Translations under genes and position numbers: made by a program
The notes under the pieces: generated by a model
Database searches by the model: none
Told to the model about the DNA's origin: nothing
The model's input: only the letters and a program-made list of their open reading frames with translations
Part shown: positions 5,280-64,000 of the stretch, in pieces
Position numbering within the stretch: the first letter of the stretch is position 1
Layout: every line of letters begins with the position of its first letter
Assembly: GCF_009914755.1 (NCBI RefSeq)
Contig: NC_060947.1
Reading direction: 5' to 3' (one strand)
Length of the DNA: 64,000 nucleotides
Origin: the human T2T-CHM13v2.0 reference genome, Homo sapiens

Positions 5280-6166
5280 TTACTTTTCTTTTTAAAAGAA
5301 AATATGCTGTATTTACTGTTTTAAAAACTAGTAAGTTGAATATTTAACCTTATATAATAGTGGACTTGAAAAGTAAAATGCAGAAAAAAAAACCTTCTTT
5401 TCTTTTGTCACCATTAAATATATCAATTATTACTAAAACTTCAATTTCCCTAAGTTTAGCAATATTTTTTAATAAAGGATTTCATTTATGAACATAATGA
5501 CAGTTTATACTTTCTTCAACTACAAAGTGATAGGATTAGATGCTCTCTAATGTTTCTCATAGCTTTAACCTTTTATGATTTCAGGAATTCAATCAATATT
5601 CTTATGTATTAAGCAATTAGCAGTAAACTAAATATTGAGATTATATCTATTTCTACATGCCTTTAGCCATAACACCAGAGTATATAAGTCCATACAAAAT
5701 CAATTGTGTCCATTTAAAATTAACATATGCAAATACATCTTACATATATTATATATATAATTATATATAATCTTATATACTTTGCCAACTGTAAAATATT
5801 ATCAAATGTTAGTTACTACTTTTATTACAAAGCACAACTTTGGGGTTACTACTGTTTTCACCTTTTGTTTTCCCAGGGAAACAGTATTGTCACTATATGA
5901 TAGCAAAGGCATGTACATTTAATGGGCCTATCCAACTGAAATTGTTTTGTCTCTACCCAGTGAAAATGTCAAAACACTGTGGACAATCACAAAACAGAAC
6001 AAATAATCCCCACCCAAGGGGTTTACATGTATCATATGATAGAATATAATATATTACTAACTGAACAAAATATAAGCAAAGTAAAATGATCAGCTGTATG
6101 CCATTTCAAAAATTATTTTTGAAAAAAAAAGCAAATTTATTTCAATATTCTACGTTGAATATTTAC

Positions 6167-62849: not shown

Positions 62850-63270
62850 TAAATGTATTAAAAAGCACTTTGGAAAAAGAAATGGATGTTACTAAAAGTC
62901 AATGTGGATTCACTAAGAATGTATTATGCGAAACCAGTGTTACTCAAACTGGTGTCCCTCAGAATACTAAATGTTAATAGAATGGTGCTGGAATTAAAAA
63001 ATCTGTTCTATGGCTAAATAAATATGGGAAACAGGTATTTAGCAAAGTATTTGAACACAGAACAATTCTATTTGTGTGTGTGTGTGTGTGTGTATGTGTG
63101 TATTACTTATCATTATTCTAGACTAACGGCCTATGAAATATAGTTTTGGTTAACTATAGTTTTAAGTTAATTTTCTTTATTTGTAGAGTTACGAGACTTG
63201 TGGAAAGGAAAATAAACAATCATGTTTTATTTTAATTTTTATAAGGAGTTTGAAGAAATTTCATAAATGT
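62850..63270 (+). mobile_element. L3/CR1 fragment interrupted by a hAT-like element with (TG)n
   Basis: agtcaatgtggattcactaagaa...cgaaacc CR1-like RT; insertion starting cagtgttactcaaact. Confidence 0.45.
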
Positions 63271-63351
63271 AAGATGAAAACATGTCTTCAGGATCACTTA
63301 AATATATTGATTCCATAACCCTTAAATAAATTTTGAAAATTTATATATCCC

Positions 63352-63497
63352 AGAGGCTCCTCAGCCGCATGCCAAGCAGTCAATCGCCTTAGCTCCCGCA
63401 GCCTGTGCTCCCAACTCTGTGGCTCCACCCGCTATTGTAGGCCAATAATCTGTTATGGAGCATGCCTTTACCCCGTTGGAGCCCCTGCTTTCCACTG
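63352..63497 (+). pseudogene. Processed copy of the TPK1 5'UTR and first 43 coding nt (5'-transduced with an L1)
   Basis: ORF 63455 starts MEHAFTPLEPLLST, identical to the recalled N-terminus of human thiamin pyrophosphokinase 1; match stops at c.43; GC-rich leader against AT-rich flank. Confidence 0.88.
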
Positions 63498-63551
63498 AAG
63501 TGCCTTCACCTTCTGCCATAATTGTGAGGCCTCTCCCAGCTACATGGAACT
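63498..63551 (+). mobile_element. 54-nt THE1 (MaLR) LTR-derived exon
   Basis: aagtgccttcaccttctgccataattgtgaggcc...tggaact; stops where the THE1 consensus continues gtgagt (splice donor). Confidence 0.8.
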
Positions 63552-64000
63552 ATGGCCGAATAGGAACAGCTCCAGTCGGCAGATCCCAGCATGATCGACC
63601 CAGAACACGGGTGATTTCTGCATTTCCAACTGAGCTCTGAAGAGAGCAGTGGTTCTCCCAACATGGTGTTTGAGCTCTGAGAATGGACAGACTGCCTCCT
63701 CAAGTGGGTCCCTGACCCCTGTGTAGCCTAACTGGGAGACACTTCCCAGTAGGGGCCGACAGACACCTCATATAGGTGGGTGCCCCTCTGGGAGGAAGCT
63801 TCCAGAGGAAGGATCAGCCAGCAATATTTGCTGTTCTGCAACCTCCGCTGGTGATAGCCAGGCAAACAGGGTCTGGAGTGGACCTCCAGCAAACGCCAAC
63901 AGACCTGCAGCAGAGGGGCCTGACTGTTAGAAGGAAAGCTAACAAACAGAAAGGAATAGCATCAACATGAACAAAAAGGACATCTACACCAAAACCCCAT
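63552..64000 (+). mobile_element. L1PA6/7-like 5'UTR with a spliced-out intron (SpIRE type); runs off the window end
   Basis: atggccgaataggaacagctcc...ccaactgag|ctctgaagagagcag; the unspliced L1 at 31101 has GT (31201) ... AG (31838) between these same flanks. Confidence 0.92.

What the first reader, a model, noticed from the sequence alone, without database searches (positions are those of the whole stretch)
63352..64000. Retrotransposed TPK1-THE1-L1 chimera: host-gene exons carried as a spliced 5' transduction
Seen: AT-rich flank switches at ~63352 to a GC-rich leader, then ATG (63455) MEHAFTPLEPLLST+G, then a 54-nt THE1 LTR piece, then an L1 5'UTR starting at ATGGCCGAA without its first bases. 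Knowledge (recalled): MEHAFTPLEPLLSTG is the N-terminus of TPK1 (chr7) and its first coding exon ends at c.43, exactly where the match stops (63497). The THE1 piece begins after consensus ...gtaAG and ends before GTgagt, and the L1 begins after consensus ...ccaAG. Inference: a TPK1-promoter transcript spliced through an exonised THE1 LTR into a sense-oriented L1 in TPK1 intron 2 and was retrotransposed here. That would identify the source L1, show an L1 mobilised from a host promoter, and create a 61-aa fusion ORF (63455..63640).
Basis: partly seen in the sequence, partly recalled or inferred. Interest (0 to 1): 0.9.

Follow-up and report, generated by a model that had tools for sequence, protein, structure and literature searches.

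The report
Old L1 carrying spliced TPK1 exons
An ancient, dead L1 retrotransposon on the X chromosome carries at its front end the first two spliced exons of the chromosome 7 gene TPK1 plus a short piece of an LTR, so a spliced hybrid RNA was copied back into the genome; this exact element is already listed in a 2026 paper.

Summary
Window 63354-63497 is TPK1 exon 1 plus exon 2 (chr7) with the 349-nt intron 1 removed exactly at GT..AG. A 54-nt MaLR LTR piece follows, then an L1 5'UTR that starts just after an AG. A 17-nt target site duplication (16/17 identical) and a decayed A-tail enclose the whole 5.6-kb insert, which ends 4.9 kb beyond the window.

New here: the L1 also carries the SpIRE97/622-type intra-5'UTR splice (63634|63635), and a ~305-nt non-splice deletion across the ORF1/ORF2 boundary.

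TPK1 intron 2 (69.8 kb, fully scanned) and 230 kb of the gene hold no matching MaLR exon and no sense full-length L1. The one intronic MaLR candidate matches worse than six unlinked copies, and about 2,000 copies genome-wide match the core better. Both chimera junctions are unique, so there are no siblings. The 61-aa ORF exists but has no support as a gene.

The element is already catalogued in Table S5 of Cell Genomics 2026 (PMC13174262), which describes 17 such mRNA/L1 chimeras. Verdict: real, correctly read in outline, already known. Cis versus trans splicing stays open.

The parts
63335..63351 (+). 5' copy of the target site duplication (GAAAATTTATATATCCC). The 3' copy lies outside the window at window-equivalent 68943-68959 (L001 5943-5959), 16 of 17 identical. 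The site TTTT|GAAAA is L1-endonuclease-like.
   Evidence: same TSD given in Table S5 of PMC13174262
63352..63353 (+). Two bases (AG) at the 5' end of the insert that do not match the TPK1 bases upstream (CA). They are either untemplated or cap-derived, or a diverged part of exon 1.
   Evidence: direct comparison
63354..63438 (+). TPK1 exon 1 (5'UTR, CpG island), the last 85-86 nt up to the native donor; 83% identical to C7:146016762-146016847.
   Evidence: across both exons: 6 CpG-decay differences, 9 other mismatches, 1 gap in 145 columns; CpG count 11 in the parent against 5 here
63439..63497 (+). TPK1 exon 2, complete (59 nt, holds the ATG and 43 coding nt); 58 of 59 identical to C7:146016354-146016412. 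Intron 1 (349 nt) is precisely absent.
63498..63551 (+). A 54-nt piece of a MaLR (THE1/MST-type; the name is recalled) LTR, used as an internal exon. In intact unlinked copies the aligned stretch is preceded by AG (4 of 6) and followed by GT (4 of 6).
   Evidence: The 54-mer is unique at <=3 mismatches. Its 29-nt core has 2,015 matches at <=2 mismatches genome-wide.
63552..63634 (+). L1 5'UTR, first block (about nt 14-97 in L1.3 numbering). It lacks the first ~13 nt and starts right after the AG of ...CCAAG|ATGGCC seen in 5 of 5 other L1 copies. It ends at ...CAACTGAG, which is the 5'UTR splice donor position.
63635..64000 (+). L1 5'UTR, second block, starting at the position of the '622' acceptor (CTCTGAAGAGAG...). 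The L1 runs on beyond the window to about window-equivalent 68942. 511-515 nt present in unspliced copies are absent here, and in those copies the missing stretch runs from GT (one of the two copies has AT) to AG.
   Evidence: L1 identity by Pfam: Transposase_22, Tnp_22_trimer, RVT_1. The L1 is dead: the ORF1 start reads ATA, frames are broken, and ~305 nt are deleted at L001 ~2051 with AGGC microhomology.
63455..63640 (+). Incidental 61-aa open frame: 14 TPK1 residues, then a read-through of the LTR piece and the L1 5'UTR.
   Evidence: no Pfam family at E<=10

Best explanation
One ancient L1-mediated retrotransposition event (target-primed reverse transcription) inserted a multiply spliced chimeric RNA at this chrX site. 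The RNA began in TPK1 exon 1, so it was made from the TPK1 promoter on chr7. It had been spliced four times:
- TPK1 exon 1 to exon 2, at the native sites.
- Exon 2 donor to a cryptic AG...GT exon inside a MaLR LTR.
- That exon's GT donor to an AG acceptor about 13 nt inside an L1PA 5'UTR.
- Inside the L1 5'UTR, the known donor to the known acceptor (SpIRE97/622 type).

The sequence shows directly the order of the pieces, the exact junctions, the TSD and the A-tail. The host-promoter origin and the use of the spliceosome at the three non-native junctions are inferred.

It is not resolved whether the exon 2 / LTR / L1 joins were made in cis (from an intronic L1 allele now lost) or in trans. The insert is now a decayed, non-coding singleton.
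For: - TPK1 exons 1-2 are joined exactly, with intron 1 removed at GT..AG, and they are the only other genomic match to that part of the insert.
- In intact MaLR copies the LTR piece is bounded by AG (4 of 6) and GT (4 of 6).
- The L1 starts just after AG in 5 of 5 compared L1 copies.
- The internal L1 gap of 511-515 nt runs from ...CTGAG|GT to ...GACAG| in unspliced copies. In one search, 30 rows start at query 82/83 and 3 separate rows cover query 1-83.
- A single 17-nt TSD (16 of 17), a decayed A-tail and an AT-rich TTTT|GAAAA target enclose the whole insert. There is no internal A-tail or second TSD at the junctions.
- Loss of CpG (11 to 5) and 9 non-CpG differences in 145 columns fit an old, unexpressed copy.
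- The same structure is recorded independently in Table S5 of PMC13174262. The main text of that paper describes 17 such chimeras and argues for splicing.
Against: - No source was found. There is no colinear MaLR exon and no sense full-length L1 in the 230 kb of TPK1 scanned. No outlier relative of the L1 body was found genome-wide; the best matches are 90-91%.
- One of the two unspliced L1 copies has AT rather than GT at the donor, and 2 of 6 MaLR copies lack AG or GT at each boundary. Splice-site status therefore rests on family-typical states, not on the true source.
- The first two bases of the insert (AG) do not match TPK1.
- I did not verify that the 5' end coincides with an annotated TPK1 transcription start.
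Confidence: 0.9

Rival explanations
1. Cis-splicing. A TPK1 pre-mRNA spliced from exon 2 through an exonised MaLR LTR into a sense L1 lying in a TPK1 intron. The reader says intron 2. The source allele may since have been lost.
For: - Cis-splicing is the common route (established knowledge).
- The published RAP1GDS1 case has a SpIRE-type L1PA2 source in intron 2 of the host gene (passages of PMC11838501).
- A MaLR copy in TPK1, in sense orientation, ends ...GGAACT|GTAACT and is the copy chosen in Table S5.
Against: - Intron 2 (69.8 kb) has no match to the piece and only an antisense, ~80% identical L1.
- The only candidate lies beyond at least two more coding exons. It matches 42 of 54 nt with 11 mismatches and 2 gap columns, has no AG at the aligned start, and carries about 10 extra nt. 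Six unlinked copies match 47-52 of 54.
- In the 29-nt core the candidate has 6 mismatches, whereas 2,014 other genomic sites have 2 or fewer.
- The one similar L1 in the scanned part of TPK1 (C7:145794650-145799114, 90.7%) is antisense.
- About 154 kb of TPK1 was not scanned.
Confidence: 0.4
2. Trans-splicing. The TPK1 exon 2 donor was joined to an acceptor in a separate transcript, made elsewhere, that already contained the MaLR exon and the L1.
For: - No source was found in 60% of TPK1, including all of intron 2.
- The LTR piece fits many unlinked copies far better than the TPK1 copy.
- Intron 2 is long (69.8 kb). The Cell Genomics paper links long downstream introns to possible trans-splicing and found no intronic source L1 for the MAP3K13 and FHIT examples (section 13). 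The preprint says 15 loci lack intronic LINE-1.
Against: Trans-splicing is rare in mammals (established knowledge). No partner locus with an LTR exon upstream of a sense L1 was identified here. Absence of a source after roughly 20-40 million years is also expected under cis-splicing with a lost allele.
Confidence: 0.35
3. Reverse-transcriptase template switching or RNA ligation (as proposed for U6/L1 chimeras) joined separate RNAs during or before integration, without the spliceosome.
For: Chimeric L1 insertions made by template switching or RtcB ligation are documented (PMC6789731, abstract in the search listing; Figure 7 legend of PMC11838501).
Against: All three non-native junctions fall exactly at positions that are AG| or |GT in intact family members, and the TPK1 part ends exactly at the exon 2 donor. 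Template switching would need three switches, each landing on such a position. All parts are in sense orientation.
Confidence: 0.06
4. Independent neighbouring events: a TPK1 processed-pseudogene fragment, an old LTR fragment and an L1 inserted side by side, or a later DNA rearrangement.
For: None specific. Nested repeats are common.
Against: One TSD pair brackets the whole insert, with no A-tail or TSD at the inner junctions. The TPK1 part comprises only the first two exons and stops at a donor site, whereas a processed pseudogene would normally extend from the 3' end.
Confidence: 0.02

Closest known systems
mRNA/LINE-1 5'-transduction chimeras (Cell Genomics 2026, PMC13174262; preprint PMC11838501)
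   Same: This very element is a row of Table S5: hg38 chrX:81175826-81181203, TSD GAAAATTTATATATCCC, gene TPK1. The 200-nt non-L1 sequence there is identical to window 63352-63551. The class is defined by first exons in sense orientation, ending at a splice donor, fused to a near-full-length L1, with TPRT hallmarks.
   Different: TPK1 is not named in the main text of the paper (0 occurrences). The table maps 42 nt of the extra piece to a TPK1 intron and marks the rest 'CA' and '?'. Here that mapping is shown to be no better than unlinked MaLR copies, and the piece is identified as an LTR-derived exon.
RAP1GDS1 / L1PA2 SpIRE promoter co-option (same paper)
   Same: Host exons 1-2 are spliced to an L1 whose 5'UTR lacks the 99-624 segment, and the L1 is mobilised from the host promoter (passages).
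   Different: There the source L1 is still in intron 2 and gave several insertions. Here no source and no siblings were found, an LTR exon lies between gene and L1, and the L1 starts at about nt 14 rather than being entered from 15 nt upstream.
SpIRE97/622 (Larson et al. 2018, PMC5860796)
   Same: Same donor (...CTGAG|GT) and acceptor (...GACAG|CT...) positions in the L1 5'UTR, and a ~0.5-kb deletion (passages read).
   Different: - Larson reports 116 copies in L1PA1-L1PA6 and none in older subfamilies.
- This L1 and at least three similar spliced copies (C5:126603063, C23:67209620, C16:71721605) carry CTCTGAAG / GAGCTCTGAG. Larson's L1PA4-6 clones and the L1PA5 rows of Table S5 carry CTTTGAAG / GAGATCTGAG. 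This suggests an older subfamily, but the subfamily was not assigned by any tool.
- The TSD was not found in the held text of Larson's supplements (long runs there are cut).
SVA-F1 (MAST2 exon 1 spliced onto SVA; recalled, no paper read here)
   Same: A host first exon acquired by splicing and carried as a 5' transduction by a retrotransposon mobilised by L1.
   Different: That chimera founded a propagating subfamily. This one is a dead singleton.
U6/L1 chimeras
   Same: A chimeric insert with one TSD, made by the L1 machinery.
   Different: Those junctions are not at splice sites and the L1 part is usually 5'-truncated. The proposed mechanism is ligation or template switching (abstract of PMC6789731).

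Membership tests
L1 insertion made by target-primed reverse transcription | Target site duplication flanking the whole insert | tested here: met
   17 nt, 16 of 17 identical: window 63335-63351 and L001 5943-5959
L1 insertion made by target-primed reverse transcription | 3' poly(A) tail and an AT-rich endonuclease-type target | tested here: met
   Decayed A-rich tail at L001 ~5925-5942; target TTTT|GAAAA
L1 insertion made by target-primed reverse transcription | L1 coding domains present | tested here: met
   Pfam Transposase_22 (2e-16), Tnp_22_trimer, RVT_1 (1e-28) in broken frames
Spliced mRNA/L1 5'-transduction chimera | The 5' segment maps to the first exons of a gene, in sense orientation, with the intron removed | tested here: met
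   TPK1 exons 1 and 2, with the 349-nt intron absent at GT..AG
Spliced mRNA/L1 5'-transduction chimera | The host part ends exactly at a splice donor and the next part begins after an acceptor | tested here: met
   Exon 2 ends ...CCACTG|GT. MaLR piece: AG before in 4 of 6 copies, GT after in 4 of 6. L1: AG before in 5 of 5.
Spliced mRNA/L1 5'-transduction chimera, cis form (RAP1GDS1 type) | A sense source L1 (and here the LTR exon) present in an intron of the host gene | tested here: not met
   None in 230 kb of about 385 kb of TPK1, including the whole of intron 2. The gene length is recalled.
SpIRE97/622 | The deletion in the 5'UTR runs from the G98U99 donor to the A620G621 acceptor | tested here: met
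   Against two unspliced copies the missing 511-515 nt start GT (C11 copy; AT in the C17 copy) after ...CTGAG and end AG before CTCTGAAG. The L1.3 numbering is taken from Larson 2018 and was not aligned to L1.3 here.
SpIRE97/622 | Belongs to L1PA1-L1PA6, the range reported | tested here: inconclusive
   Diagnostic-looking differences from L1PA4-6 sequences printed in supplements suggest an older subfamily. No RepeatMasker or Dfam assignment was possible.
Template-switch or ligation chimera (U6/L1 type) | Junctions unrelated to splice sites; the L1 usually 5'-truncated at arbitrary positions | tested here: not met
   All junctions fall at splice-site positions, and the L1 is near full length.

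The most novel reading that the evidence does not exclude
The chimera was made in trans. A TPK1 pre-mRNA with a 70-kb intron 2 was spliced onto an LTR-exon-containing L1 transcript from another locus. That would make this a three-unit (gene / LTR / L1) trans-spliced RNA captured in the germline. It would also show that the 97/622 intra-5'UTR splice was already in use in an L1PA subfamily older than the L1PA1-L1PA6 range reported for SpIREs.
Probability: 0.3. Interest if true: 0.5.

Novelty: already known. Interest (0 to 1): 0.3.

Why it matters
Such elements are fossil records of germline RNAs in which a host promoter drove an L1. They show how an L1 with a crippled promoter can still move, and how L1 can acquire new 5' sequence. 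That point is already made in print, with this element in the supporting table.

What this check adds is small:
- The extra 54 nt is an LTR-derived cryptic exon. Its published assignment to a TPK1 intron is not supported by sequence, which leaves trans-splicing as likely as cis for this case.
- The L1 part is itself a SpIRE-type spliced element, probably of an older subfamily than those reported.

The 61-aa fusion frame has no sign of function.

Tried and rejected
- **Source in TPK1.** I scanned C7:145786354-146016353 (230 kb). There was no colinear LTR exon and no sense L1 with a 5'UTR.
- **Source by similarity of the L1 body** (40 of 47,945 candidates scored). All best matches were 90-91%, with no outlier.
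- **Sibling copies.** The 54-mer and both chimera junction 36-mers are unique at <=3 mismatches.
- **A shared derived base between the TPK1 LTR copy and the insert (CACG/CACA).** Rejected, because CACATGG is the family-typical state in the six other copies.
- **The ~305-nt ORF1/ORF2 deletion as a third splice.** Rejected: it has no GT..AG and is flanked by AGGC microhomology.
- **Listing MaLR copies on chr7 by pattern**. The output is cut after the first 100 of 2,015 places, so chr7 was not seen.
- **Pfam on the 61-aa frame:** nothing.
- **First MAFFT alignment of the junction**: it misplaced the 5' block, so it was replaced by BLAST. A first scripted alignment had wrong end-gap settings and was replaced.
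- **Literature.** TPK1 with transduction, retrotransposon and LINE-1 gave 0 papers. TPK1 is absent from the main texts of PMC13174262 and PMC11838501.

Full report
**What is there**

At about 63350 the AT-rich flank (GC ~0.22) changes to ~0.55-0.6 GC. A search of the window's own genome with 63352-63560 scored 40 of 429 candidates and gave 41 rows. Those rows were:
- The locus itself.
- Two hits on contig C7, minus strand: query 88-146 at C7:146016354-146016412 (98%, E 6e-20), and query 3-87 at C7:146016762-146016847 (83%, E 2e-14).
- 38 rows that match only query 146-203, which is a dispersed repeat.

In the fetched C7 locus (L002) the two hits are exons:
- The first ends ...CATTGT|GTAAGT.
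- The second is 59 nt, preceded by ...TGCAG| and followed by |GTACTG. It holds an ATG at its 17th base, giving 43 coding bases.

In the window the two are joined base-perfectly, so the 349-nt intron has been removed. A Pfam TPK_catalytic search of the genome finds further exons of the same gene downstream on C7. The published table names the gene TPK1.

**The rest of the insert**

Window 63498-63551 (54 nt) is a piece of a MaLR-type LTR; the family name is recalled. I aligned it to six unlinked genomic copies:
- It matches 47-52 of its 54 bases.
- The aligned stretch is preceded by AG in 4 of the 6 copies (GTGAG| or GTAAG|).
- It is followed by GT in 4 of the 6 (GGAACT|GTGAGT-like; the other two read AT).

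From 63552 the sequence is L1 5'UTR. Five of five other L1 copies examined read ...CCAAG|ATGGCC..., so the L1 part starts just after an AG and lacks about 13 leading bases.

- In one search (40 of 4,691 candidates scored, 43 rows), 30 rows match only from query 82/83 onward, and 3 separate rows cover query 1-81/83 about 0.5 kb upstream in the same copies.
- Nine other loci match contiguously, which means they carry the same gap.
- Against two unspliced copies the missing 511-515 nt begin GT (C11 copy; AT in the C17 copy) and end AG.
- This is the donor/acceptor pair of SpIRE97/622 as described by Larson et al. 2018 (PMC5860796, passages read).

**Hallmarks of retrotransposition**

I fetched the sequence beyond the window as L001.
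- The L1 ends at about L001 5942 in a decayed A-rich tail.
- The tail is followed by GACAATTTATATATCCC, against GAAAATTTATATATCCC at window 63335-63351 (16 of 17).
- One duplication therefore brackets the whole 5.6-kb insert, and the target reads TTTT|GAAAA.
- Pfam finds Transposase_22, Tnp_22_trimer and RVT_1 in the broken frames.
- The L1 is dead. The position of the ORF1 start reads ATA.
- About 305 nt spanning the ORF1 end and ORF2 start are missing, with AGGC microhomology and no GT..AG, so that gap is a deletion and not a splice.

**Age**

The TPK1-derived 145 columns differ from the parent at 6 CpG-decay positions, 9 other positions and 1 gap. CpG count falls from 11 to 5. The L1 body is 90-91% identical to its best genomic matches. 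Using recalled primate substitution rates, this suggests very roughly 20-40 million years. I could not test orthologous sites.

**Where did the parts come from?**

- I located exon 3, so intron 2 is C7:145946557-146016353, 69.8 kb.
- I scanned 230 kb of the gene, C7:145786354-146016353.
- Intron 2 has no match to the 54-nt piece. Its only long L1 is antisense and ~80% identical.
- The only LTR candidate is C7:145807713-145807754, in sense, followed by GTAACT. By coordinate offset this is the stretch that the published table gives as chr7:144627255-144627296.
- That candidate lies beyond exon 3 and a further coding exon at C7:145829563-145829635. It matches 37 of 43 in its 3' part but only 42 of the 54 bases overall. 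It has no AG at the aligned start and has about 10 extra bases. It is the worst of the seven copies compared.
- In the 29-nt core it has 6 mismatches. Genome-wide, 2,015 sites including the window's own have 2 or fewer, and 24 unlinked sites, none on C7, are identical.
- A similar L1 (90.7%) at C7:145794650-145799114 is antisense to TPK1.
- The 54-mer and both junction 36-mers are unique at <=3 mismatches, so there are no sibling insertions.

**Interpretation**

Every junction sits at a splice-site position, all parts are in sense orientation, and one TSD encloses everything. The insert is therefore best read as a retrotransposed, four-times-spliced RNA that started in TPK1 exon 1.

Template switching would need three switches, each landing on a splice-site position. 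Separate neighbouring insertions would leave inner TSDs or A-tails, and none is seen.

Cis-splicing (an intronic source allele since lost) and trans-splicing cannot be told apart here. The failure to find a credible LTR exon in 60% of the gene, including all of intron 2, lowers the cis model from its high prior to roughly even odds.

The 61-aa frame (63455-63640) has no family match. It sits in a CpG-decayed copy that carries only 85 nt of TPK1 5'UTR and none of the sequence upstream of it. I regard it as incidental.

**Prior knowledge**

'Comparative genomics reveals LINE-1 recombination with diverse RNAs' (Cell Genomics 2026, PMC13174262; preprint PMC11838501) reports 17 mRNA/lncRNA-L1 5' chimeras. 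It argues for cis- or trans-splicing and describes RAP1GDS1 exons driving a SpIRE-type L1PA2. I read section 13 and passages.

Its Table S5 (supplementary file 4, read) lists this element:
- hg38 chrX:81175826-81181203, with the same TSD and gene TPK1.
- The same 200-nt non-L1 sequence.
- A donor placed at chr7:144,627,253-254.
- The L1 given as two overlapping segments split at the internal junction.

TPK1 does not appear in either main text. A search for TPK1 together with transduction, retrotransposon and LINE-1 found 0 papers. The held text of Larson's supplements does not contain this TSD (long runs there are cut, so absence is not certain).

**Verdict**

The finding is real and well read, but already known. 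The additions here are:
- The LTR identity of the extra exon.
- The weakness of its published mapping to a TPK1 intron.
- The explicit SpIRE-type splice.
- A hint that the L1 is older than L1PA6.

Noticed in passing
G000 C5:126603063-126603510, C23:67209620-67210068, C16:71721605-71722066 (L024, L027, L028); six further loci: Nine other L1 copies carry the same 97/622-type gap. The three aligned ones share the CTCTGAAG / GAGCTCTGAG states of this element, not the CTTTGAAG / GAGATCTGAG states of printed L1PA4-6 SpIREs. If they are L1PA7 or older, that would extend the range reported by Larson 2018 (none older than L1PA6).
   Followed up: partly
L001 2040-2130 (window-equivalent 65040-65130): A ~305-nt deletion removes the ORF1 end, the spacer and the ORF2 start. 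It is flanked by AGGC microhomology. Just downstream, the A-run in early ORF2 is expanded to 30 A.
   Followed up: yes
G000 C7:145794650-145799114 (L042/L041): An L1 of similar type (90.7% over 3.1 kb, 5'UTR unspliced, internal deletion of about elem 1030-2479) lies in a TPK1 intron but antisense to the gene.
   Followed up: partly
Table S5 of PMC13174262: Several other published host-exon/L1 chimeras (MAP3K13, both RAP1GDS1 rows, the ENSG00000233928 row) also show the ...CTGAG|CTTTGAAGAG junction in the printed L1 sequence. SpIRE-type L1s therefore look over-represented among these chimeras, which fits dependence on a foreign promoter.
   Followed up: no
window 63068-63101: A (GT)n-type microsatellite about 250 nt upstream of the insertion site.
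   Followed up: no
L001 5945 compared with hg38 as printed in Table S5: The 3' TSD reads GACAATTT... in this assembly but is printed as GAAAATTT... in the table. This is either a variant between assemblies or a consensus-corrected entry.
   Followed up: no
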